A model generated the notes under the pieces. It did no database searches, was not told the DNA's origin, and saw only the letters and a program-made list of their open reading frames with translations. Shown in pieces: positions 8,375-20,720 of a stretch of DNA of 64,000 nucleotides. The stretch is from Caldisericota bacterium. Lineage in GTDB: Bacteria > Caldisericota > JANLFM01. Within the stretch, counting starts at the first letter, position 1. Every line of letters starts with the position of its first letter. The position numbers and the translations under genes were made by a program. The DNA is taken from the NCBI GenBank assembly GCA_024655965.1, contig JANLFL010000001.1, positions 22,049 to 86,048 of the forward strand, given 5' to 3'.

Positions 8375-9433
8375 ATGCCGGAGTTCGTCAAAGCCCACCT
8401 ATTTGAATCTCTCGAGGGAGGAACTGCCAGATGCCTGGTTTGCCCCCGGGAATGCGTTTTAAAAGAAGGCCAGATCGGTTTCTGCGGAACACGGGTCAAC
8501 CAAGGTGGGGAAATTTACTCCATGATATACGGTATGGTCTCCTCGGTGGCCATCGACCCCATCGAGAAAAAGCCCCTGTTTCACTTTCACCCGGGGAGCC
8601 CCTGCCTTTCCTTTGGTTCCTTCGGTTGTAATTTTCGCTGCATCCACTGCCAGAACTGGAGCATTTCCCATCGGCTGGTTGAGAAAGGGATCCCTGATGG
8701 AAGGTACCTTTCTCCGCAGGATGGGGTAAAAATAGCGCTTGAAAACCAGGCAAAGGGGATTTCATGGACCTACAACGAGCCCACGATCTGGCACGAATAC
8801 ACCATGGATATGGGAAAAATCGCCAAAGAAAAAGGTTTGTACACCGTTTATGTGACAAACGGTTTCATCACCCCCCAAGCCCTGAAGGAGCTTTCCCAGG
8901 TTCTGGACGCCTTTCGAGTGGATTTAAAGGGCTGGGAAAAGGAATTCTGGAGAAGGATCTGCAAAATCGACGATCCCGCCCCTGTCTTTCGGGCAGCTTA
9001 CGAAGCAAAAAACAAATACCATATGCACGTGGAAGTGGTGACGAACGTCATCCCAACATTCAACGACGATGATCAGACCTTCACCAACCTCGCCCGGTGG
9101 ATATTGGATAACCTCGGAGCGGATTGCCCCTGGCATATCACCCGTTTCGTACCCTACCTGGAACTCTCCCATCTTCCCTACACTCCCCTTTCTACCCTGG
9201 AAAGGGGAAGGTCTATAGGCCTTGAGACCGGCTTGAAATTTGTATACTTAGGAAATGTCCCCGGCCATCCCGGGGAAAATACCTTCTGCCCCAAATGTGG
9301 CACCCTATTGATCGAGCGCTACGGTTTCTGGATCAAGAAGAACCTCCTTTCTTCAAACAACCATTGCCCAAAATGCGGGGAAAAGATTAATATAGTGGGC
9401 AGTATTGAGCGTCAAAAAAACCTCTTTTTTTAG
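8375..9433 (+). CDS. amrS: AmmeMemoRadiSam-system-type radical SAM enzyme
   Basis: N-terminal Cys-rich ARCLVCPRECVLKEGQIGFCG, radical SAM CNFRCIHCQNW, and a C-terminal zinc ribbon CPKCG...CPKCG. Confidence 0.7.
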   Translation: MPEFVKAHLFESLEGGTARCLVCPRECVLKEGQIGFCGTRVNQGGEIYSMIYGMVSSVAIDPIEKKPLFHFHPGSPCLSFGSFGCNFRCIHCQNWSISHRLVEKGIPDGRYLSPQDGVKIALENQAKGISWTYNEPTIWHEYTMDMGKIAKEKGLYTVYVTNGFITPQALKELSQVLDAFRVDLKGWEKEFWRRICKIDDPAPVFRAAYEAKNKYHMHVEVVTNVIPTFNDDDQTFTNLARWILDNLGADCPWHITRFVPYLELSHLPYTPLSTLERGRSIGLETGLKFVYLGNVPGHPGENTFCPKCGTLLIERYGFWIKKNLLSSNNHCPKCGEKINIVGSIERQKNLFF

Positions 9434-9445
9434 GAGGGAGGTTAA

Positions 9446-11137
9446 ATGAACCAAATCCCAATTGGCTTCGTTGTGGGAGAGGCCCGCTCCGATTCATTCC
9501 TTTTCGTCACCACTCCGGATCTTTGCCCCCCGAGGCTGGAATATGTCGTTCTAAAAGGTCTCCGGGAGAGAATTTCCGGGAAAGAAGAGGGTGTTGAGGT
9601 TCTGGCTCAGATCACAGAGCTCAGGGCTACTTCCCAGGTCTTTGATTCAGCCTTAACCTTTCAGGAAACGGAAACAATTCTCAGGGCTGAATACTCCGCC
9701 TCTCCCCGGATCCTCGCCACCGCAACCGTCCTTGGATACCTTGATTCCCAGGATCGGGTTTTCCTCCCGCGTTCCACTCCTCTTCCAGGGGACAGGGTTT
9801 TCGTGGCTCCCGACGATCTGCTTGAGAGATTCTTTACCAGGAATATTCAGGACGGAATTTTGGTGGGAACCCTGATAAATCGCCCCCAGGTCAAGGTCAA
9901 GATCGATCCTAATGGCTTAAGAAGGCATTTAGCAATCATTGCCCAAACTGGGGCGGGGAAATCCTACCTTTCTGGGATCCTCCTGGAAAACTTGCTTCAA
10001 TTGGGCGGGACGATCATCGTCTTCGACCCTAACTCGGATTATGTGTACATGAGGAAGGACCGAAGAGGAAAGGAAACCCCATTTTCGGGGGACATTTTGG
10101 TCTACCGGGTTCCCAATATTAAAGGAAGGCGATTCTCCGATGAGGAAATTGGAGGAAGCAATTCATACACCATTCAATTTTCCAGATTAGGGATCGACGA
10201 AATTTGTACTCTGGGGGGAATTCCCGAGAGTTATTCAAATATTCGGGAGGCAATAAAAAAGGCCTGCGCGGAACTTGAAGAGGACAATATCGATTACAAG
10301 CCCCCCGAACTGGCAAAAAAACTGAAGGAGATGGCCGGGATTTTGGAAGATGAATACCTTTCCCTTCACACTCAGAGGTTCCTCGAAGGAAAAGAAGAAC
10401 CCATCCCGGAACTTACTCCAAAAGGAGGGAAACGGAAGGGGCTTTCCCCCGATATTGAAAAAGGGGCGGAAAGGGCGATCAAGTATATCGAGAACCTTTG
10501 CTCTTACGATATCTGGGGATTCAGCGACGTCCCAATCGAAGAACTTTTAAAGCCCGTTCGCCTTTCGGTTATCGACCTTGCAGGCCTTGAAAGGAGCGTT
10601 ACGGAATTCGTCGTAGACAAAACTTTAAGGGAAATCTGGGCCAGAGCCACAACCGGAAAACTCCCGTATCCGGTTTTCGTGGTCCTTGAAGAAGCCCACA
10701 CTTTCGTTCCCCAGGAAAACAAGAGCCATTGCCGGGAAATCATAAACCGAATAGCTTCTGAGGGCCGGAAATTCAAAGTCTTCCTCATCGTGATCACCCA
10801 GAGGCCTCACAAAATTCATCAGGACACCCTGTCTCAATGCGCAAGCCAGATCATCATGAAGCTCACCAACCCCGAGGACCAGGAGGCAGTCAAGAAAGCG
10901 GCGGAAAATCTTTCCAGTGACTTGTTCGCCGACCTTCCCGGGTTGAACGTTGGGGAGGCGATCCTCCTCGGGACACTAACCAGGGTCCCTGTAATGATCA
11001 AAGCGGGTGAACGGATCACCCGGGAGGGGGGATCGGACATTGACGTACCCGAAGCCCTTAAGTTAGCTTTGCGAGAAAAGAAGATGAAAGTTCCCCCGGA
11101 GTTCCTTGAAAGGGTTGAACCCGAGGAAGCAGGGTGA
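9446..11137 (+). CDS. herA: HerA-type FtsK/HerA-superfamily ATPase (DUF87)
   Basis: N-terminal barrel PIGFVVGEARSDSFLFV, Walker A AIIAQTGAGKSY, Walker B VFVVLEEAH, and later ITQRP. RBS ggagggagg lies upstream. Confidence 0.8.
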   Translation: MNQIPIGFVVGEARSDSFLFVTTPDLCPPRLEYVVLKGLRERISGKEEGVEVLAQITELRATSQVFDSALTFQETETILRAEYSASPRILATATVLGYLDSQDRVFLPRSTPLPGDRVFVAPDDLLERFFTRNIQDGILVGTLINRPQVKVKIDPNGLRRHLAIIAQTGAGKSYLSGILLENLLQLGGTIIVFDPNSDYVYMRKDRRGKETPFSGDILVYRVPNIKGRRFSDEEIGGSNSYTIQFSRLGIDEICTLGGIPESYSNIREAIKKACAELEEDNIDYKPPELAKKLKEMAGILEDEYLSLHTQRFLEGKEEPIPELTPKGGKRKGLSPDIEKGAERAIKYIENLCSYDIWGFSDVPIEELLKPVRLSVIDLAGLERSVTEFVVDKTLREIWARATTGKLPYPVFVVLEEAHTFVPQENKSHCREIINRIASEGRKFKVFLIVITQRPHKIHQDTLSQCASQIIMKLTNPEDQEAVKKAAENLSSDLFADLPGLNVGEAILLGTLTRVPVMIKAGERITREGGSDIDVPEALKLALREKKMKVPPEFLERVEPEEAG

Positions 11138-12045
11138 TGCTACCCGGAAAGATTGTTTATTCCCCCCATTATCTCGTCCGTCTTGAAAATCACGTTTACC
11201 AGACGGAAAAATATTCCCTGGTAAAAGATAGGCTAATTCGGGAGGGCTGGGCGAAAGAAGAGGATTTCATCGAACCGGAACTCCCCTCAGAAGAGACCCT
11301 CCTTCTGGTCCATTCCCGGGAATACTTAAATGATTTAAAGGGGCTCAGGTTCACCCAGAGGACCTGTCGCGCGGAACTCCCCCTCACCCGGGATCTGGTG
11401 GATTCCGCACTTTATTCTGTTTCCGGAACCATCCTCGCTTTGGAGGAAGCTCTTAAGGCAAGGATAGGAATTCACCTCGGTGGGGGTCATCATCACGCTT
11501 TCCCGGACCACGCGGAAGGTTTCTGCTACCTTAACGACGTAGCCATCTGCGCCAGGCAGGCAATCGCAAAAGGGGTGGCTGAGAAAGTGGCCATCGTGGA
11601 CTGCGACCTCCACCAGGGAAACGGAACGGCTTTCATTTTTCAAAACGAACCCAGGGTCTTCACCTTCTCCATTCACGAGGAGGAAATTTACCCGAAAAAG
11701 GAGAAAAGCTCCCTGGATATCGGGCTAAACGGAGGGACGGGGGATATTGAATACCTCAGGGAGCTGGAAAGGGGCCTTACGGAAGTCCTCCGTTTCCAGC
11801 CCGAGTTGATAATTTATGTCGGTGGGGTTGATCCATTCCGCTACGATAAATTGGGAAGCTTAAAATTGACAAAAGAGGGCCTTTTAAAGAGGGACTCCAT
11901 GGTCCTCGGTGAATGCGCCCAAAGGAGGATTCCCTGCGTTGTTACCATGGCAGGAGGATACGCCTTCAAAGTGGAGGATACCGTTGACCTCCACTTTCAG
12001 ACGGTAATTACCGCTATCAGGTTTATGAAAATTTTAAATGGTTAG
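11134..12045 (+). CDS. Zn-dependent deacetylase, histone deacetylase (HDAC/AcuC/Aph) family
   Basis: Motifs GGGHHHAFPDHAEGFCYLNDVA, DCDLHQGNGT and MAGGYAF (catalytic Tyr). The start (GTG 11134 or ATG 11137) overlaps the herA stop. Confidence 0.85.
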   Translation: MMLPGKIVYSPHYLVRLENHVYQTEKYSLVKDRLIREGWAKEEDFIEPELPSEETLLLVHSREYLNDLKGLRFTQRTCRAELPLTRDLVDSALYSVSGTILALEEALKARIGIHLGGGHHHAFPDHAEGFCYLNDVAICARQAIAKGVAEKVAIVDCDLHQGNGTAFIFQNEPRVFTFSIHEEEIYPKKEKSSLDIGLNGGTGDIEYLRELERGLTEVLRFQPELIIYVGGVDPFRYDKLGSLKLTKEGLLKRDSMVLGECAQRRIPCVVTMAGGYAFKVEDTVDLHFQTVITAIRFMKILNG

Positions 12046-13198
12046 AATAGTCCTTACCGCGGATAACCATTTAAACGCTTATTACCGGAAAATGAGTCCC
12101 TCCCAGATGGGGGAAAGGAGAAAAGCCCTCCAATCGGCTTTTCACCAGGTCATCGAATTCTCCCTAAAAAACGCAGACATTTTCCTGCAAGCCGGGGACC
12201 TTTTCGATTCCACTGAGCCGGGATACGAGGACATTCTTTTCGCCTTGAGGTGCTTCCATCAATTGAGTGAGAAAGGGGTTAGGGCCTTCGCCATCGGGGG
12301 AACCCACGACACCCCCAAATCGAAAGAAAGAATGTCACCCCTGAGATTTCTCTCCGAGTTAGGGGTCCTCCATTTCTTCTCCAAAAAGACCGGGATTGAG
12401 ACTTCCAAGGTTAAGGTGAACGGGGTGGAAATTTCAATTGGGGGAATGTCCACAAATACCCGCTTGCCTAACTCAGAGGATCCGCTCAAAGGGGTGTCCT
12501 TCCCCGAATTCGGCGAACTAAACATCCTTCTTTTGCATTACGGCATCCAGGGCCATTACATTCCCGGGGCACAGGATTTAACCGTTCCCCTTGGAAGCCT
12601 TGACCTCTTGGAAGGAGTTAACCTGTTTGCAGTTGGACATTATCACCATCCCAGGGATTTTAGAATTGGCGAAAAATTAATAATTATTCCCGGTGCCACG
12701 GAAAGGATGGATTTTGGAGAGCGGGAGGAAAGCTGTGGATTTTATTATTTAGAATACCAGTCCGGGAAACTCGACTGTCAGTTCATCAAGGTTGAAACTC
12801 AACCAATGGGACAGGTTGTGGTCCGTTCCCCGGAAATCGAAAGGGCACTCGATCCCACCTCTATGATCCTGGAAAGGATACGAGAAGCATCAAACCCCAG
12901 AAAGCTCCTCAAATTAAAGGTGGAAGGAGTCTTCACTCCCGAACTTTACCACCAGGTCCAGTGGGCAAAAGTCTGGCAAGAAGGAAAAGCAGGGAACTTC
13001 TTCTTCGACATCGATCTGGCCTCAATGAAAATGAACCCGGCTAAACCCGATATTAAAACAGGAGGAGCAGGTTATTCGGAAAAGGAAGAAATCAAAAAAG
13101 TGGCTACAGCACTTGCAGAAAAAGCTTCCCCGAGCGAAAGGGAAATATTTCTCGATGCCCTTGATCTAATTATGGAGGAATACAATAAGCGAAGATAA
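12038..13198 (+). CDS. Mre11/SbcD-like metallophosphoesterase nuclease
   Basis: Calcineurin-fold motifs TADNHL, AGDLFD, GGTHD, LLLHYG and GHYHH. The start overlaps the deacetylase stop by 8 nt. Confidence 0.8.
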   Translation: MVRIVLTADNHLNAYYRKMSPSQMGERRKALQSAFHQVIEFSLKNADIFLQAGDLFDSTEPGYEDILFALRCFHQLSEKGVRAFAIGGTHDTPKSKERMSPLRFLSELGVLHFFSKKTGIETSKVKVNGVEISIGGMSTNTRLPNSEDPLKGVSFPEFGELNILLLHYGIQGHYIPGAQDLTVPLGSLDLLEGVNLFAVGHYHHPRDFRIGEKLIIIPGATERMDFGEREESCGFYYLEYQSGKLDCQFIKVETQPMGQVVVRSPEIERALDPTSMILERIREASNPRKLLKLKVEGVFTPELYHQVQWAKVWQEGKAGNFFFDIDLASMKMNPAKPDIKTGGAGYSEKEEIKKVATALAEKASPSEREIFLDALDLIMEEYNKRR

Positions 13199-15858
13199 TG
13201 ATCCTGATTAGAAAACTCCAGGTCCACAACTTCAAACAACTGGAAAATTTGAGCCTCTGGTTCCCAGAAAAAGGCAGTTTCCTGATCGAGGGGGCGAATG
13301 AAGCGGGAAAGAGCAGCCTTTTCGAGGCGATTTTCTTCGGGATCTTCGGAAGGCCACTTGCAGGAAGCCTTCCCGATCTGGTGAATTTTCAAGAAAACGT
13401 GAAGAAGGCCACCGTGGAACTTGAGATAACTGCGGAGGGTGAAATCCTTCACATTTTCAGGGAGATCCCCAAACAGGGAAACCAGAGCGCGTACTTGATA
13501 GTAAAAACCGAGGACGGAAAGGAGCTCGACCGCATCAGCAAAGTTAAGGTGGTTAACGATCGAATCGAAAGGGCATTGAAATTCGACTCTCAGGCTTTTT
13601 TGAACTCCTGTTTCGTGGAGCAGAAAAAACTTGGGAAGCTGGAGGAAGCAACTTCCCAAGAGAGGAGAAATGCTCTTTCCAAGCTTATCAACCTGGATTT
13701 CATGCTGGAACTCGAGGAGAAATTCAAGGTTAGCATGGAGGACAAAAACAGGTTGAATTCCCTAAAAGAAAGGGAGGAGCTTGCCAGGATCAGGGAGGAG
13801 CTTGCACCCCTTGAGGATCGGTTAAAGAAAGTGGAGCGCCAACTAAAGTTACTTTCCTTAAAAGGAAACCTGGAAAACCTGAAAAGGAACAAGGCGGAAA
13901 TCGACGAATGGAGGGAAAAAATTGCCTCCCTTGAATCAAAAAAGGTCCAGTTAAGAGAAAAGATCGAGACTTTGGAAAAATTGAACTCCCTGGCCACGGA
14001 AATCAGGATTTTTCTTTCCTCTCGCCAAAACCTCACCAATTTGCAAAAGCAGATGGAAGCAGTTGAAGGGGAGCTTGAGGAACTCAAAAAGAAAGGGGAC
14101 TCCATTCCCCAGCTCGAAGGACGGATCTCGCAGCTCCGGACCTTGAAGCGAAATTGGGATAGAATTCAGGACCTGGAAAACAAGAAAAGGGAGACCGAGC
14201 AAAAATTGGATGCGGTAGCGGGGGAAATCGACAAAAAACTCAAAAAACGTGAGGAACTTGAAAGGATTAAGGGGGAGAAGGAAGCCCTCAATGCCCAGCG
14301 GAAAGGACTTGAGGAAAAGGGTATCGAATTAAGGAATCGGGCAAAAAAGGAGCTTGCCCTTGCGATTGTTTTTCTCCTCTTGGCTGTTTCCATCTCCCTT
14401 CCTTCCATTTTCGGACTCCTGCCGATCTATCTCCTTTCCTTTCTAACTCTTTTAATTCCTGCGATTTTCTTTTCTTTGAAATCCAAAAAACGGAAAGAAA
14501 GGGCAAATTCCATCCAGAGAGAAATTCAGTCCTTCCTCGAACAGGAGCAAAAGCTCGCGGGAAAAATGGAAATTTTCCAAACCCCGGAATTCGACCTAAA
14601 ATTCGGGGGATTTGAAGAGGAATTAAATTTCTTAAGGGAAAGAAAAGCGAGAATTGAAAAGGCTTTGAATTCGGCCCTGGAAAAAGTCCAAAAAGAAGGA
14701 AGCCTCCTGGGAGCCAGGACCAGAGACGAGGTTGTCGGGGAGATCAATCGGTTGGAGGGAAAAATCGAGGATTTAAAAAAGGAGGTTGCCAGGATCGAGG
14801 ATAGGACAAATTACCTGAGGAACCTCTCCCAATCATTCCAAAAGCAATCCCTGGAGGAGGAAAAACACGGCAAAATCCTTCAAAATTTAGATCCCGGAAT
14901 TTACCTGGAAGAGGATTCTCTCAGGGGAAAATTGGCGGAGCTTCAAAGGAACCTTCAAGAAACAAAGGCAAGGGAGCTTAAAGCAGAATTGAGTGGACTG
15001 GAAAACGATGTCGGGGCTTTATCGGGTAGAGTGGAGATCAAAGAAAGGGAAAACCAAAAAATCCTTTCTGAATTAAAAGAAACCTGTTCGATTTTGGAAT
15101 TACCTTTTGAAAAAATCATGAATGGGGAAGACATTCCAGAGCTTGAAGCGCTCCCGCCTGTGGAAGAAAAGGTCATAAAAGGGGAAAGGGATTATCTTTT
15201 TGCGGAAAGGGAATCGATGAGGAAAAAGGAGGCGGAGCTCTCCGAAAAGTTGGGATTGAAAGAAATTGCCCTCGATTTTTCCTCCGCGAGAAAGGAGAGG
15301 GAGGATTTTGAGCACCAATTGAGGGTCAGGGAAATTGCCAAACAAATTCTGAGCGTCACACGGGAAGCCATTTATAACCAGGTCAAACCCCAGACGGAAT
15401 ACCACATGAGCCTTATTGTTCCCCTGCTCACTTCCAACAGGTACCAGGAAGTACAACTTACAGATGAATACAAGATCCGAGTCTGGGACGAAAGAGCAAG
15501 AGGTTACAGGGAAAAGGAGATCTTCTCAGGCGGGACCCAGGACCAGTTCTCCCTGGCTCTGCGTTTGGCTTTCGCCATGGCCACGCTTCCCCAGGAAAGG
15601 GGCTCATCCCCGGGGTTTATCTTCCTCGACGAACCATTCTCCTCCTCGGACATTGAACGAACAAAAGCCCTGGTGGAGTTACTGACCAGAGGGATCATCC
15701 ACGAGGTTTTTCCCCAGGTCTTCGTTATCTCCCATTCCACGGTCGTGGACCCTGAAGAGTTCGATTATTACTTATATTTGGAGAATGGGAGGGTTACAAA
15801 AAATACCATCGAGGAAATTCACAAGTACCCTCAGGAGGAACATGGGTTATTCCAATAA
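13198..15858 (+). CDS. Rad50/SbcC-like SMC-type ATPase with a central transmembrane hairpin
   Basis: Walker A GANEAGKS, signature FSGGTQDQ, Walker B FIFLDEPF, H-loop ISHS. Long E/K/L heptad arms. Hydrophobic aa 386-427. TAATG overlap with the upstream gene. Confidence 0.8.
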   Translation: MILIRKLQVHNFKQLENLSLWFPEKGSFLIEGANEAGKSSLFEAIFFGIFGRPLAGSLPDLVNFQENVKKATVELEITAEGEILHIFREIPKQGNQSAYLIVKTEDGKELDRISKVKVVNDRIERALKFDSQAFLNSCFVEQKKLGKLEEATSQERRNALSKLINLDFMLELEEKFKVSMEDKNRLNSLKEREELARIREELAPLEDRLKKVERQLKLLSLKGNLENLKRNKAEIDEWREKIASLESKKVQLREKIETLEKLNSLATEIRIFLSSRQNLTNLQKQMEAVEGELEELKKKGDSIPQLEGRISQLRTLKRNWDRIQDLENKKRETEQKLDAVAGEIDKKLKKREELERIKGEKEALNAQRKGLEEKGIELRNRAKKELALAIVFLLLAVSISLPSIFGLLPIYLLSFLTLLIPAIFFSLKSKKRKERANSIQREIQSFLEQEQKLAGKMEIFQTPEFDLKFGGFEEELNFLRERKARIEKALNSALEKVQKEGSLLGARTRDEVVGEINRLEGKIEDLKKEVARIEDRTNYLRNLSQSFQKQSLEEEKHGKILQNLDPGIYLEEDSLRGKLAELQRNLQETKARELKAELSGLENDVGALSGRVEIKERENQKILSELKETCSILELPFEKIMNGEDIPELEALPPVEEKVIKGERDYLFAERESMRKKEAELSEKLGLKEIALDFSSARKEREDFEHQLRVREIAKQILSVTREAIYNQVKPQTEYHMSLIVPLLTSNRYQEVQLTDEYKIRVWDERARGYREKEIFSGGTQDQFSLALRLAFAMATLPQERGSSPGFIFLDEPFSSSDIERTKALVELLTRGIIHEVFPQVFVISHSTVVDPEEFDYYLYLENGRVTKNTIEEIHKYPQEEHGLFQ

Positions 15859-16489
15859 AGCTTTTATTCTCCCGAGAGCAATTTTCTTCCTCCTTGCCCC
15901 CCTCTTTTTCTTGAGCCTAACCATATCTATTCTGGCTTTCGATCCAGGCTTTTTCTTCTCCCTTCAGAAAGGGATTGGGTACCCGGTAACCGATGCCACA
16001 TACGAGCTCGATAGGAAAATATCCAGTTCCTTGTTCTTCGGAGTCCAGGGAGAAAACCTCCAGGAGTTCTCCCAAAAGGAAATCCTCCACCTGGAGGATA
16101 TTCATAAACTCCTCCGCTCGCTTTTTATCTTTTCAATTTTCAGCGGCTTAACCTTTCTGGGATCTACCGTCTTTCTGGCGTTTAATGATATGAAGTTCCG
16201 GAAAATGCTTTTTTGGGGCTTCCTTTCCTCTCTCGGTTTTTACCTCATTTTAGGTCTCTTGTTTTTTTTATTTTTCGATTGGGCTTTTCTTAATTTCCAC
16301 CTGGCTGTTTTTTCAAATGATTACTGGATCCTTGGGGATGATTACCTCCTTTACCGCCTGTTTCCCCCGGAACTGTTTCAAAAAGCCCTCTTTCCCTTCT
16401 TTTTCCTCCTGATTTTTTTGACCTCGCTTTACTATATTCTTTCCTCCGCCATTTCCAGAAAATCCTCAAGGGCGCCCAAGGCTTCCTGA
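15842..16489 (+). CDS. DUF1461 (TIGR01906-like) integral membrane protein
   Basis: I prefer ATG 15842 (aggagg 3 nt upstream) over 15785. N-terminal TM helix, an extracytoplasmic segment with EILHLEDI, and three C-terminal TM helices. Confidence 0.5.
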   Translation: MGYSNKAFILPRAIFFLLAPLFFLSLTISILAFDPGFFFSLQKGIGYPVTDATYELDRKISSSLFFGVQGENLQEFSQKEILHLEDIHKLLRSLFIFSIFSGLTFLGSTVFLAFNDMKFRKMLFWGFLSSLGFYLILGLLFFLFFDWAFLNFHLAVFSNDYWILGDDYLLYRLFPPELFQKALFPFFFLLIFLTSLYYILSSAISRKSSRAPKAS

Positions 16490-19414: not shown

Positions 19415-19489
19415 GGGCGGTTAGTTCAGCGGTAGAACGCTTCGTTGACACCGAAGAGGTCGTAGGTTCGACTCCTACATCGCCCACCA
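19415..19489 (+). tRNA. tRNA-Val (anticodon GAC), CCA encoded
   Basis: Hand-folded cloverleaf: acceptor GGGCGGT/ATCGCCC (one G-U pair), D arm GTTC/GAAC, anticodon arm CTTCG-TTGACAC-CGAAG, T arm GTAGG-TTCGACT-CCTAC, then discriminator A and CCA. 75 nt. Confidence 0.95.
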
Positions 19490-19550: not shown

Positions 19551-20720
19551 ATGCCAACTTTCATTGATCTTCTGTTAAAGGAAATCTCCCAAAAAGCTCC
19601 CTCCCTTTTCAGGTTGTGGGAGAGACAGGCCTTGAGCAAGGAGGAGGAAACCCTATTTCAAAGGGCCCGGGACATCTGGTTGGCCGTTCCTGCAAGCCCT
19701 GGCAATCCTTCAGTTAAAGCTTTTGCCTGCGATGGTTCCATGATTGAGCGCTCCTTCAACAATGGGGCGACCATCTTCATCGGGCAGGCTCTACTCATTG
19801 GAAATGCCATCGAAGAAAAAAACCTAAGGGTGGACTTATTCAGGGGAGGCATGGAAAGGGGGACAATCGATCGGTTAAATTCCATTTTTCTTAAAGAATT
19901 GGAAGTCTCCCTTTGCTTGGAAAACATGGAATTGATGGAGGGAGGTGTCCTTTTCCTCGACGGGTCCCTGTATAGCACCCTCCCTCACCTCCTCTACCCC
20001 GTTTCCGGAGGGAGGGAGATTAGTCCACCGGATCCTGCACTTGACCTCCTGGAAAAAATCCTCCGCCTCCTGGAAAAAGCGGAGGAATTTAAAGTGAAAA
20101 TTATCTGTTTATCCAAGTCCTCTCACGATCTCCTCCTGTCCCGGAAACTTTACTTCAAAAGCTTAGAAGATGATATCCCCGAGGAGGAACTCCTAAAGCC
20201 TCAAGGGGAAGTCATTTCAGATTCAGAACTTCTCTTTCGTTCCACAAAAGAGCCCGGCTTTTCCCGCCCCCTGATGGTGGGGAAAATGTCCTTCTACCCC
20301 AGGCACTCCGCTCTTTTTTTGAACTTCAGGGAATTAGCCAAAAGGTTCTCCCCGGAGGAGGAAAAGGCCTTGCAAATCCTTGAAAAAATCTTGGACTCCC
20401 CCGCCCACGGCATTCTCTACTGGAGGCCATCAAAGGAAGACGATCCCATTCGGGTGGATTTCCCGTGGACCTTTGAGGATGAGAGGATTCCCTTGAGGGA
20501 GATTTTCGGAATTTTTCCCCGGGATGTTGAGAAGGTCTTCCCCATCCTTTCTCAGGTTCAAAGTTTCTACGGTGGGCCCAACGTTTACAATGCCCTTCTA
20601 TGGCAAGCGGACAGGGGGGTCCGGTTAACCAAGGAATTATCCGAAATTTACCTCGGGGTCATCAGCTCTAAGCTCGGGGAAAGGCTCAAGCTGGACCGAT
20701 CCTCCCGGAGGTTCCTTTAA
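19551..20720 (+). CDS. nurA: NurA-domain 5'-3' nuclease
   Basis: 389 aa. NurA-type acidic motifs FACDGSMIE and VLFLDGSLY. This is the usual partner of HerA. Confidence 0.65.
   Translation: MPTFIDLLLKEISQKAPSLFRLWERQALSKEEETLFQRARDIWLAVPASPGNPSVKAFACDGSMIERSFNNGATIFIGQALLIGNAIEEKNLRVDLFRGGMERGTIDRLNSIFLKELEVSLCLENMELMEGGVLFLDGSLYSTLPHLLYPVSGGREISPPDPALDLLEKILRLLEKAEEFKVKIICLSKSSHDLLLSRKLYFKSLEDDIPEEELLKPQGEVISDSELLFRSTKEPGFSRPLMVGKMSFYPRHSALFLNFRELAKRFSPEEEKALQILEKILDSPAHGILYWRPSKEDDPIRVDFPWTFEDERIPLREIFGIFPRDVEKVFPILSQVQSFYGGPNVYNALLWQADRGVRLTKELSEIYLGVISSKLGERLKLDRSSRRFL

What the first reader, a model, noticed from the sequence alone, without database searches (positions are those of the whole stretch)
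14353..14478. Rad50/SbcC-like ATPase carries a two-helix membrane hairpin where the zinc hook should be
Seen: the 886-aa protein has split ABC head motifs at both ends and long heptad-rich arms. Almost exactly at the midpoint (aa 386-427) sits LALAIVFLLLAVSISLPSIFG-LLPIYLLSFLTLLIPAIFFSL. This is 42 uncharged residues flanked by KK on one side and KSKKRKER on the other. The whole protein has only two Cys residues and no CxxC.

Established: Rad50 and SbcC dimerise at the coiled-coil apex through a CxxC zinc hook.

Inference: the apex is inserted into, or dimerises within, the membrane, which would tether a DNA-end-processing complex to the envelope. The next, translationally coupled gene is also a membrane protein.

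Caveat from memory: the Bacillus subtilis SbcE/YhaN SMC-like protein, with partner SbcF/YhaO, is annotated with central hydrophobic segments. This may be that family, here newly linked to HerA and NurA.
Basis: partly seen in the sequence, partly recalled or inferred. Interest (0 to 1): 0.65.

Follow-up and report, generated by a model that had tools for sequence, protein, structure and literature searches.

The report
Rad50 with membrane hairpin replacing hook
This DNA-break-repair ATPase (Rad50) has, where its zinc hook should be, two greasy helices that look built to sit in the cell membrane, and the same swap defines a large, apparently undescribed Rad50 family found in many bacteria and archaea, including Asgard archaea.

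Summary
The 886-aa ORF at 13198-15858 has Rad50-type ABC heads and long helical arms. Residues 386-427 (14353-14478) form a 42-residue uncharged stretch with basic residues on both sides. There is no CxxC.

It is not an error or a one-off. Related sludge strains carry 11 substitutions across this region but only one amino-acid change. About 90% of roughly 300 homologues have a 35-67-aa hydrophobic hairpin at the same position, and none has a zinc hook. Every hook-bearing relative lacks the hairpin.

AlphaFold2 shows the hairpin as the direct continuation of the antiparallel coiled coil.

The gene is translationally coupled to an upstream mre11. In Bathyarchaeia, Thermofilaceae, Nitrososphaeria, several Asgard phyla, Dictyoglomaceae and Chloroflexota, the same Rad50 type sits in canonical nurA-herA-mre11-rad50 operons.

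By sequence it is much closer to canonical Rad50 than to Bacillus SbcE/YhaN. SbcE/YhaN has an analogous hydrophobic centre that has never been interpreted as a membrane hairpin.

Best reading: a genuine Mre11-Rad50 complex whose apex is anchored, and probably paired, in the cytoplasmic membrane. Membrane insertion and biological role are inferred, not shown. I found no published description. I rate it a new variant of a known kind.

The parts
13198..15858 (+). rad50-like gene (886 aa) of the membrane-hairpin type
   Evidence: ORF and translation. Pfam finds AAA_23, SMC_N and SbcC_Walker_B. All 8 PDB sequence hits are Rad50. AF2 mean pLDDT is 83.4.
13198..13734 (+). N-terminal half of the ABC head (aa 1-179), with Walker A GANEAGKS at 13291-13314 and Q-loop Q142
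   Evidence: Invariant columns G32 N34 E35 G37 K38 S39 Q142 in the 55-sequence alignment. AF2 beta/alpha head with pLDDT about 90.
13735..14352 (+). outgoing coiled-coil arm (aa 180-385)
   Evidence: AF2 predicts a single helix over 180-405.
14353..14412 (+). hydrophobic helix 1 of the hairpin (aa 386-405, LALAIVFLLLAVSISLPSIF)
   Evidence: Hessa-scale 19-mer sum -0.96 and KD maximum 2.57. Helical in AF2.
14413..14421 (+). three-residue turn (aa 406-408, GLL) between the two hydrophobic helices
   Evidence: AF2 places a non-helical break at 406-408, with pLDDT dipping to 63. P/G/N occurs in the central 14 residues in 143 of 151 family hairpins.
14422..14478 (+). hydrophobic helix 2 of the hairpin (aa 409-427, PIYLLSFLTLLIPAIFFSL), followed by KSKKRKER
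   Evidence: Hessa-scale sum about 0.0. AF2 helix 409-460. Basic-flank statistics.
14479..15429 (+). returning coiled-coil arm (aa 428-744), about 110 aa longer than the outgoing arm and interrupted by several breaks
   Evidence: AF2 helices 409-460, 469-503, 509-564, 572-633, 657-685 and 694-744.
15430..15855 (+). C-terminal half of the ABC head (aa 745-886), with signature SGGTQDQ at 15526-15546, Walker B FIFLDEP at 15616-15636 and H-loop H846
   Evidence: Nearly invariant columns S777 G778 G779 D782 Q783 F807 D811 E812 P813 H846. Pfam SbcC_Walker_B over 767-830.
12038..13198 (+). mre11/sbcD-like nuclease gene (386 aa), with its stop codon overlapping the rad50 start (TAATG)
   Evidence: Pfam Metallophos; NCBIfam Mre11_Sulfo at 89.8 bits, below the cut-off. 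Junction sequence. An Mre11 gene lies immediately upstream of the rad50 gene in most related loci.
11134..12045 (+). histone-deacetylase-family gene inserted between herA and mre11, overlapping both
   Evidence: PF00850 at 200.8 bits. The same position is seen in L005, L006 and L086 only.
9446..11137 (+). herA helicase gene
   Evidence: PF01935 at 112 bits; NCBIfam helicase_HerA at 208 bits.
15785..16489 (+). Lit/TIGR01906-like polytopic membrane protein gene overlapping the rad50 3' end; the alternative start at 15842 follows a GGAGGA
   Evidence: PF07314 at 37.8 bits and TIGR01906 at 50 bits. Junction sequence. A 39%-identical homologue occupies the same position in L086.
19551..20720 (+). 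nurA nuclease gene, detached from the operon by four genes and a tRNA
   Evidence: PF09376 at 48.8 bits. tRNA at 19415-19486. NurA is contiguous with herA-mre11-rad50 in many related loci.

Best explanation
The gene encodes the Rad50 subunit of a genuine Mre11-Rad50 complex. The apex of its antiparallel coiled coil is a helix-turn-helix of two about-20-residue hydrophobic helices instead of a CxxC zinc hook.

The hairpin inserts into the cytoplasmic membrane. Both basic flanks, both arms, the ATPase heads and Mre11 stay in the cytoplasm. The heads could therefore reach up to about 30 nm from the membrane (about 205 residues of coiled coil).

The hairpin does the hook's job of holding two arm tips together. 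It does so either by lateral packing of two hairpins into a four-helix bundle or simply by confining them to two dimensions. It also restricts the DNA-end clamp and nuclease to the membrane-proximal zone. HerA and NurA then carry out long-range resection.

Shown here: the sequence feature, its conservation, its mutual exclusivity with the hook, the Mre11/HerA/NurA gene linkage and the predicted fold.

Inferred: membrane insertion, pairing in the membrane, and the biological role. The role could be housekeeping break repair at the nucleoid periphery or handling of DNA that enters at the membrane.
For: 1. Physical properties. The segment has 42 residues with no charged or amide residue and a KD maximum of 2.57. 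Hessa 19-mer sums are -0.96 and 0.0.

2. Family-wide conservation of the property, not the sequence. In the first search, all of P0001-P0058 have a central hydrophobic stretch and no CxxC, while all of P0059-P0118 have a central CxxC and no such stretch. Of 173 non-redundant long members, 151 have a hairpin of at least 34 aa (median 44), and most of the rest have one interrupted by a single charge. Of 128 further 50%-identity cluster representatives, 116 have it and none has a hook.

3. Basic flanks on both sides. K+R per 10 residues is 3.17 and 2.80, and D+E is 0.93 and 1.11. The arm background is 1.58 and 1.93 (p 6e-38 and 2e-28).

4. AF2 (pLDDT 83.4) gives helix 180-405, a turn at 406-408 and helix 409-460. 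The hairpin is therefore the coiled-coil apex.

5. Purifying selection. A related sludge strain has 11 substitutions across 14328-14481, no indel and a single change, S426F.

6. The heads are Rad50-type. All 8 PDB sequence hits are Rad50, Foldseek identity to T. maritima Rad50 heads is 28-29%, and hhalign to hook-type Rad50 gives E 5e-69 over 827 columns.

7. Gene context. The mre11 stop overlaps the rad50 start. Mre11 lies directly upstream in most of about 150 loci. Complete nurA-herA-mre11-rad50 operons carry this Rad50 type in Thermofilaceae, Bathyarchaeia, Nitrososphaeria, Hermod-, Prometh-, Thor-, Odin- and Baldrarchaeota, Dictyoglomaceae, Krumholzibacteria and Chloroflexota.

8. Heads-only profiles place the archaeal and bacterial hairpin types closest to each other (260-283 bits) and further from hook types (126-201 bits).

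9. Precedents. The hook is a modular dimeriser that can be swapped for an SMC hinge (PMC6969161). The hydrophobic centre of B. subtilis SbcE is insoluble, and SbcE forms polar foci in competent cells (PMC2811018).
Against: - There is no experimental evidence of membrane association for any member.
- No dedicated TM predictor and no multimer model could be run, so hairpin pairing is speculative.
- About 8-10% of the family (Thermoflexus L030 and L036; L043, L082, L023, L048; 12 of 128 representatives) have neither hairpin nor hook. The apex is therefore dispensable or replaceable, and the complex can evidently work without a membrane anchor.
- A 35-45-aa hairpin with a very short turn could be a re-entrant monotopic anchor rather than a twice-spanning one.
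- The two arms differ by about 110 residues, which the simple rod picture does not explain.
- I could not determine whether these genomes also carry a hook-type Rad50/SbcC.
Confidence: 0.7

Rival explanations
1. The hydrophobic apex is not in the membrane. It is a cytosolic self-association module: two or more apices bury their greasy helices against each other, as a hook substitute or a higher-order clustering device.
For: The hook's known role is dimerisation, and it can be replaced by another dimeriser (PMC6969161). The hairpins are rich in Ala and Gly (16% and 12%), which favours tight helix packing. Some relatives manage with neither hook nor hairpin.
Against: A soluble bundle needs polar outward faces, but here all positions are apolar over 35-67 residues. 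The sequence drifts freely while only hydrophobicity, length and basic flanks are kept, which is the signature of lipid-exposed helices. Hessa sums at or below 0 predict translocon insertion. The SbcE centre is completely insoluble (PMC2811018).
Confidence: 0.1
2. It is simply a member (orthologue) of the already named SbcE/YhaN-SbcF/YhaO family of Firmicutes. On this reading nothing is new except the neighbourhood.
For: The architecture is the same: split head, long arms, a central hydrophobic hairpin between basic residues (KQKK-37 aa-KK in the Bacillus protein) and an upstream SbcD/Mre11-like gene. The Pfam AAA_27 (YhaN) model is matched above its threshold (28.7 bits). It is matched nearly end to end by the Thor- and Baldrarchaeota members (41.7 and 37.7 bits). 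hhalign probability is 99.2%.
Against: BLASTP aligns only the P-loop (E 2e-5). YhaN hits only AAA_27, at 100 bits, whereas the window family is led by AAA_23, SMC_N and SbcC_Walker_B, like Rad50. hhalign to hook-type Rad50 is far stronger (E 5e-69 over the full length) than to YhaN (1e-19 over the C-terminal half). Heads-only profiles score YhaN at 65 bits or less against every group, with no preference for the hairpin family. NJ bootstraps are unresolved. The hook-type control P0062 also touches AAA_27 (23.6 bits).
Confidence: 0.12
3. The architecture is as in the best explanation, but the role is not chromosomal break repair. The membrane anchor positions the complex to meet DNA that crosses the envelope. 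That could mean processing transforming or conjugative DNA for recombination, or attacking the ends of injected phage or plasmid DNA.
For: SbcE accumulates at the poles of competent B. subtilis cells, and its loss mildly lowers transformation (PMC2811018). In Thermoproteales, DNA-import (Ted) loci co-occur with rad50 and herA-like genes (PMC9905601). Rad50-like ATPases recur in defence systems, and the window protein matches LmuB at 91 bits. Linear DNA ends appear first at the membrane.
Against: Mre11, NurA, HDAC and the Lit-like protein have no PADLOC hits. HerA scores higher on the repair equivalog (208 bits) than on the anti-phage models (108-153 bits). The gene sits in the canonical, chromosomal nurA-herA-mre11-rad50 operon among housekeeping genes (ddl, glnA, folD), with conserved synteny and no mobile-element or defence-island signs. 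Relatives on viral contigs are all hook-type. No Pyrobaculum or Vulcanisaeta (Ted-bearing) genome appeared in the archaeal scan.
Confidence: 0.25
4. The hydrophobic stretch is an assembly or sequencing artefact, for example a frameshift hiding a hook.
For: None was found. The source is a metagenome-type sequence.
Against: Independent sludge and bioreactor runs from five studies carry the gene. A related strain shows only substitutions and one conservative amino-acid change across the hairpin. Hundreds of homologues from independent assemblies and cultured Ktedonobacteria (L027, L029, L037, L071) share the feature.
Confidence: 0.01

Closest known systems
Canonical archaeal/bacterial Rad50 (P. 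furiosus, M. jannaschii, T. maritima) with Mre11, HerA and NurA
   Same: It has the split ABC head with all motifs and a long antiparallel coiled coil. It has an adjacent, translationally coupled mre11 and operon linkage to herA and nurA. It is the best sequence and profile match.
   Different: There is no CxxC zinc hook and no PF04423 match; a 42-aa hydrophobic helix-turn-helix sits at the apex instead. NCBIfam Rad50 equivalogs score only 61-91 bits against cut-offs of 700-1087. The arms are asymmetric.
B. subtilis SbcE (YhaN) with SbcF (YhaO)
   Same: It is an SMC-like ATPase without CxxC. It has a central hydrophobic segment between basic residues and a conserved Pro in the middle, and it has an SbcD-like partner gene upstream (PMC2811018).
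   Different: It belongs to a different sequence family (AAA_27 only). The central domain is larger, with a polar second half. There is no herA or nurA. It coexists with hook-type SbcCD. The 2010 paper does not interpret the centre as a membrane hairpin. The AF2 model of its apex is low-confidence (pLDDT 31-49).
E. coli SbcCD
   Same: It is a Mre11-Rad50-type nuclease/ATPase pair with a long coiled coil. Foldseek matches the head complex 7yzp.
   Different: SbcC has a zinc hook. NCBIfam sbcc scores only 49 bits here against a cut-off of 478.
SMC hinge as an alternative apex
   Same: It shows that the coiled-coil tip of this superfamily is a swappable dimerisation module (PMC6969161).
   Different: The hinge is a soluble globular domain, whereas this apex is a lipid-type hairpin.
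Lamassu LmuB and other defence Rad50-like ATPases
   Same: The head is Rad50-like, with a PADLOC LmuB match of 91 bits.
   Different: Those proteins have no Mre11, HerA or NurA partners and different effectors. None of the partner genes here match defence models.

Membership tests
Rad50/SbcC | Split ABC ATPase head with Walker A, Q-loop, signature, Walker B, D-loop and H-loop | tested here: met
   The motifs are invariant in the 55-sequence alignment. Pfam finds AAA_23, SMC_N and SbcC_Walker_B. All PDB sequence hits are Rad50.
Rad50/SbcC | Long intramolecular antiparallel coiled coil between the head halves | tested here: met
   AF2 helices span 180-405 and 409-744 with a single reversal at 406-408. 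Foldseek top hits are full-length SMC and Rad50 chains.
Rad50/SbcC | CxxC zinc hook at the coiled-coil apex (PF04423) | tested here: not met
   There is no CxxC and only 2 Cys. There is no PF04423 match in the window protein or in the archaeal members, while the control P0062 scores 35 bits.
Rad50/SbcC | Adjacent Mre11/SbcD phosphoesterase partner gene | tested here: met
   A Metallophos/Mre11-like gene at 12038-13198 has its stop overlapping the rad50 start. This arrangement is conserved in most loci.
Rad50/SbcC | Score above the NCBIfam Rad50 or SbcC equivalog cut-offs | tested here: not met
   The best score is 91 bits against a cut-off of 700.
SbcE/YhaN | Full-length match to the YhaN N-terminal domain model (PF13514 AAA_27) as the dominant hit | tested here: not met
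   The match is 28.7 bits over profile positions 3-86 of 206, ranked below AAA_23 and SMC_N. Bacillus YhaN scores 100 bits over positions 2-203 and hits nothing else.
SbcE/YhaN | Central hydrophobic domain in place of the hook | tested here: met
   The window has 42 uncharged residues. Bacillus has KQKK-TVIAAGMLFIVLFLLLQQWIPAISIGAALIVYWLASG-KK.
SbcE/YhaN | Closer by profile to YhaN than to hook-type Rad50 | tested here: not met
   hhalign gives E 1e-19 to YhaN (C-terminal half only) against 5e-69 to hook-type Rad50 (full length). Heads-only profiles agree.
Archaeal-type NurA-HerA-Mre11-Rad50 end-resection module | herA, nurA, mre11 and rad50 encoded together | tested here: met
   The window holds herA-(HDAC)-mre11-rad50, with nurA 3.7 kb downstream. 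Relatives have contiguous four-gene operons.
Integral membrane protein (helical hairpin anchor) | Two hydrophobic segments long enough to span a bilayer, with a favourable insertion energy | tested here: met
   Helices of 20 and 19 residues; Hessa sums of -0.96 and 0.0; KD maximum of 2.57.
Integral membrane protein (helical hairpin anchor) | Positive-inside charge bias on the cytoplasmic flanks | tested here: met
   Both flanks are enriched in K/R and depleted in D/E relative to the arms in 101 homologues.
Integral membrane protein (helical hairpin anchor) | Physical association with the membrane | not testable with these tools
   This needs fractionation, topology reporters or imaging.

The most novel reading that the evidence does not exclude
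The membrane-hairpin Rad50 is the only Rad50 of many archaeal and deep-branching bacterial lineages, including most Asgard phyla. It marks an ancient, membrane-anchored version of the whole HerA-NurA-Mre11-Rad50 machine. In these organisms DNA-end resection would be physically coupled to the envelope. Possible purposes are importing or exporting DNA, clearing DNA from the division site, or holding broken ends at the membrane. The FtsK-like HerA pump and Rad50 would act as one membrane-associated apparatus. The zinc hook would then be only one of several interchangeable solutions for the Rad50 apex.
Probability: 0.3. Interest if true: 0.85.

Novelty: new variant of a known kind. Interest (0 to 1): 0.72.

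Why it matters
The zinc hook is treated as a universal and functionally essential feature of Rad50/SbcC. Here a coherent family has replaced it with what looks like a membrane anchor. The family has at least several hundred 50%-identity clusters. It spans Chloroflexota, Caldisericota, Armatimonadota, Dictyoglomota, Thermofilaceae, Bathyarchaeia, Nitrososphaeria and Asgard archaea.

If the anchor is confirmed, three things follow:
- It shows what the apex is really needed for. Tethering the arm tips would be enough, without zinc chemistry.
- It shows that break processing can be confined to the cell periphery.
- It gives a concrete hypothesis for the long-unexplained 'unique central domain' of B. 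subtilis SbcE.

The family includes cultured, growable Ktedonobacteria (Thermogemmatispora, Thermosporothrix, Dictyobacter), so the idea can be tested directly.

Tried and rejected
- Sequencing or assembly error hiding a hook: rejected.
- Buried coiled-coil heptads: rejected. The segment has no polar positions at all, against 52% in the arms.
- Known anti-phage system: PADLOC gives only generic LmuB and HerA matches, and nothing for the partner genes.
- Viral origin: relatives on viral contigs are weak matches and all carry CPTC-type hooks.
- Rooted NJ tree of head domains to decide between one and several origins of the hairpin: the bootstraps were unresolved because YhaN is a very long branch. 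Heads-only profile cross-scoring was more informative.
- Co-occurrence of hook-type and hairpin-type Rad50 in one genome: the closest hook-type group (853 aa) lies in Anaerolineales. None of its 80 assemblies coincides with the roughly 150 hairpin-type assemblies. Both lists are truncated, so this is inconclusive.
- Link to the Ted DNA-import loci of Pyrobaculum and Vulcanisaeta: no such genomes were recovered.
- AF2 of B. subtilis SbcE to compare apices: the apex has pLDDT 31-49 with a shallow alignment, so it is uninformative.
- Literature: ten searches found no description of a transmembrane Rad50. The ABC-ATPase classification by Krishnan et al. 2020 (PMC7544218), which could mention it, is not held.
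- The window contains no second SMC-like gene.
Full report
**Observation**

The window carries an 886-codon ORF at 13198-15858 on the + strand.
- Residues 386-427 correspond exactly to 14353-14478. They read LALAIVFLLLAVSISLPSIFGLLPIYLLSFLTLLIPAIFFSL.
- The stretch is preceded by RNRAKKE and followed by KSKKRKER.
- It contains no charged residue and no Q, N or H. In the flanking arms 52% of residues belong to that polar set.
- A run of 42 uncharged residues is expected about 1e-5 times in a protein of this composition.
- The protein has two cysteines and no CxxC.
- All head motifs are present: Walker A GANEAGKS, Q142, signature SGGTQDQ, Walker B FIFLDEP and H846.
- Pfam finds AAA_23, SMC_N and SbcC_Walker_B but no Rad50_zn_hook.

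There are two small corrections. A glutamate lies between 'KK' and the first leucine. The hairpin sits at 0.46 of the length rather than exactly at the midpoint.

**Not an artefact**

Contigs from sludge and bioreactor metagenomes of five studies carry the gene. A related strain differs at 11 nucleotide positions between 14328 and 14481. It has no indel in this region and only one amino-acid change, S426F. That is strong purifying selection on a hydrophobic segment.

**Neighbourhood**

The + strand order, with supporting, is:
- radical-SAM (AmmeMemoRadiSam) gene, 8375-9433
- herA, 9446-11137
- a histone-deacetylase-family gene, 11134-12045
- mre11, 12038-13198
- rad50, 13198-15858
- a Lit/TIGR01906-like membrane protein gene, from 15785 or 15842 to 16489
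- then a nucleoside deoxyribosyltransferase gene (- strand), an SLH-domain protein gene, a zinc-ribbon protein gene (- strand) and a tRNA (19415-19486)
- nurA, 19551-20720

Successive genes from herA to the Lit-like gene overlap by 1 to 74 nt. The mre11 stop and the rad50 start share a base (TAATG).

**Family**

The first homology search gave a clean dichotomy.
- P0001-P0058, at 82 to 1863 bits, all have a central 35-67-aa hydrophobic stretch and no CxxC.
- P0059-P0118, at 79 bits or less, all have a central CxxC and no hydrophobic stretch.

The hairpin sequences are not alignable between lineages. What they share is length (median 44), composition and flanks.
- Composition is L 21%, A 16%, G 12%, I 11% and V 10%.
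- A P, G or N lies near the middle in 143 of 151.
- The flanks are basic. K+R per 10 residues is 3.2 and 2.8, and D+E is 0.9 and 1.1. In the arms the values are 1.6 and 1.9 (p about 1e-38 and 1e-28).
- Hessa-scale sums for the two best 19-mers are mostly at or below zero.

Conservation of physico-chemistry without conservation of sequence is what lipid-exposed helices show. It is not what a soluble domain or a buried coiled coil would show.

An exhaustive profile search of 1.84 billion cluster representatives returned 2,343 proteins at E up to 1e-30. Of the 128 new full-length representatives in the top 150, 116 have the hairpin, none has a hook and 12 have neither.

**Structure**

AlphaFold2 with the 55-sequence alignment gives a mean pLDDT of 83.4. 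It predicts a helix over 180-405, a three-residue break at 406-408, and a helix over 409-460 that continues into the returning arm. The hydrophobic hairpin is therefore the tip of the antiparallel coiled coil, exactly where the hook sits in Rad50.

Foldseek finds SMC and Rad50 chains, with 28-29% identity to T. maritima Rad50 heads. All eight PDB sequence hits are Rad50.

**Distribution and context**

Genome scans with the bacterial alignment (A1) and an archaeal alignment (A4) recovered about 150 loci.

Mre11 is directly upstream in most of them. Complete nurA-herA-mre11-rad50 operons with a hairpin-type Rad50 occur in these groups:
- Thermofilaceae, Bathyarchaeia and Nitrososphaeria
- Hermod-, Prometh-, Thor-, Odin- and Baldrarchaeota
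- Dictyoglomaceae and Krumholzibacteria
- several Chloroflexota

Cultured carriers include Thermosporothrix hazakensis (L027), Thermogemmatispora tikiterensis (L029), Dictyobacter alpinus (L071) and Ktedonobacteria strain brp13 (L037).

No archaeal member has PF04423. The hook-type control does.

The HDAC and Lit-like genes accompany the operon only in Caldisericota (L005, L006) and in one further lineage (L086). I treat them as lineage-specific.

A minority of the family lacks both hairpin and hook. These are Thermoflexus L030 and L036, together with L043, L082, L023 and L048. Some of them carry a beta-like insert instead.

**Relation to known families**

Profile-profile comparison places the family close to hook-type Rad50, with E 5e-69 over 827 columns.

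B. subtilis SbcE/YhaN was retrieved through a published primer sequence. It has the same architecture, including KQKK-[37 uncharged residues with a central IP]-KK. In sequence, however, it is remote:
- BLASTP aligns only the P-loop.
- hhalign gives E 1e-19 over the C-terminal half only.
- YhaN hits only Pfam AAA_27. The window family is led by AAA_23, SMC_N and SbcC_Walker_B.

Heads-only HMM cross-scoring excludes any bias from the hairpin or the coils. It shows the archaeal and bacterial hairpin types to be each other's nearest relatives (260-283 bits). They score 126-201 bits against hook types, and YhaN scores 65 bits or less against every group. An NJ tree rooted on YhaN was not resolved.

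I conclude three things:
- The hairpin-type Rad50s form one family distinct from hook-type Rad50.
- The window protein is not a member of SbcE/YhaN by sequence.
- Whether the SbcE hairpin shares an origin with this one is open. Some Asgard members match AAA_27 nearly end to end, so a deep link cannot be excluded.

**Mechanism**

Shown:
- a Rad50-type head
- a coiled coil whose tip is a hydrophobic helix-turn-helix
- basic flanks on both sides
- strict mutual exclusivity with the hook
- a translationally coupled Mre11
- conserved linkage to HerA and NurA

Inferred:
- The hairpin inserts into the cytoplasmic membrane with both arms in the cytoplasm.
- It holds the tips of two Rad50 arms together, by lateral packing or by two-dimensional confinement.
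- The heads with Mre11 act on DNA ends within about 30 nm of the membrane.
- HerA and NurA then carry out resection.

The hook is a modular constitutive dimeriser that can be exchanged for an SMC hinge (PMC6969161). This makes such a replacement plausible. SbcE's central domain is insoluble and the protein forms polar foci in competent cells (PMC2811018). Both findings fit a membrane location.

**Biological role**

The role is uncertain. The chromosomal, housekeeping context and the canonical operon favour general break repair. A role in handling DNA that enters at the envelope remains possible (PMC2811018, PMC9905601). PADLOC gives no specific defence signal, and relatives on viral contigs are hook-type.

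**Limits**
- No TM predictor, multimer model or experiment was available.
- I could not establish whether carriers also encode a hook-type Rad50 or SbcC. The nearest hook-type group is in Anaerolineales and shares no assembly with the hairpin loci, but both lists are truncated.
- The AF2 model of SbcE is unreliable at the apex.
- Ten full-text searches found no description of a transmembrane Rad50.
- The 2020 ABC-ATPase classification that might mention it is not held.

**Verdict**

The protein is not an SbcE/YhaN member. I rate it a new variant of a known kind, with high interest for the Mre11-Rad50 and SMC field.

Noticed in passing
window 11134-12045 (+); also L005 7932-8840 and L086 5634-6872: A histone-deacetylase-family gene (PF00850, 200 bits) is wedged between herA and mre11, overlapping both. 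The arrangement is conserved in Caldisericota and in one more distant lineage but is absent from other phyla. It may point to deacylation control of the repair complex.
   Followed up: partly
window 15785/15842-16489 (+); L005 12666-13325; L086 11110-11784: A Lit/TIGR01906-like polytopic membrane protein gene overlaps the rad50 stop codon. A 39%-identical homologue occupies the same position in L086. It could be a membrane partner or a passenger gene.
   Followed up: partly
L030, L036 (Thermoflexus), L043, L082, L023, L024, L048; P0246, P0259, P0274 and others: About 8-10% of the hairpin-type family have lost the hairpin without gaining a hook. L036, L043 and L082 carry a 'LVLRLAVSHE..GAQVVSLHVE' beta-like insert at the apex. 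The Rad50 tip seems evolutionarily plastic.
   Followed up: partly
window 14580: Related sludge strains carry a 12-nt in-frame insertion (ACCCCGGAAATT) in the returning arm just after the hairpin.
   Followed up: no
window 14479-15429 (aa 428-744): The returning arm is about 110 residues longer than the outgoing arm. AF2 shows several breaks, including a loop-rich segment around aa 634-693, so there may be an extra element in the arm.
   Followed up: no
window 8375-9433 (+): An AmmeMemoRadiSam-system radical SAM gene (TIGR04337, 314 bits) lies 12 nt upstream of herA. It is also conserved there in L005. Its usual AMMECR1 and Memo partners were not looked for.
   Followed up: no
window 19415-19486 (+): A tRNA gene lies immediately upstream of the detached nurA.
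   Followed up: no
L152, L153, L158 (Gammaproteobacteria/Pseudomonadota): These are short relatives (610-650 aa) with a single central hydrophobic stretch and no adjacent mre11. They may be a further derived, membrane-associated Rad50-like group.
   Followed up: no
L134 12747-17699 (-): A Thorarchaeota locus has a giant 1650-aa ORF with weak HerA similarity a few kb from the nurA-herA-mre11-rad50 operon.
   Followed up: no
window 30000-54000: G+C rises to 0.52-0.55, against 0.46-0.49 elsewhere in the window. The cause was not examined.
   Followed up: no
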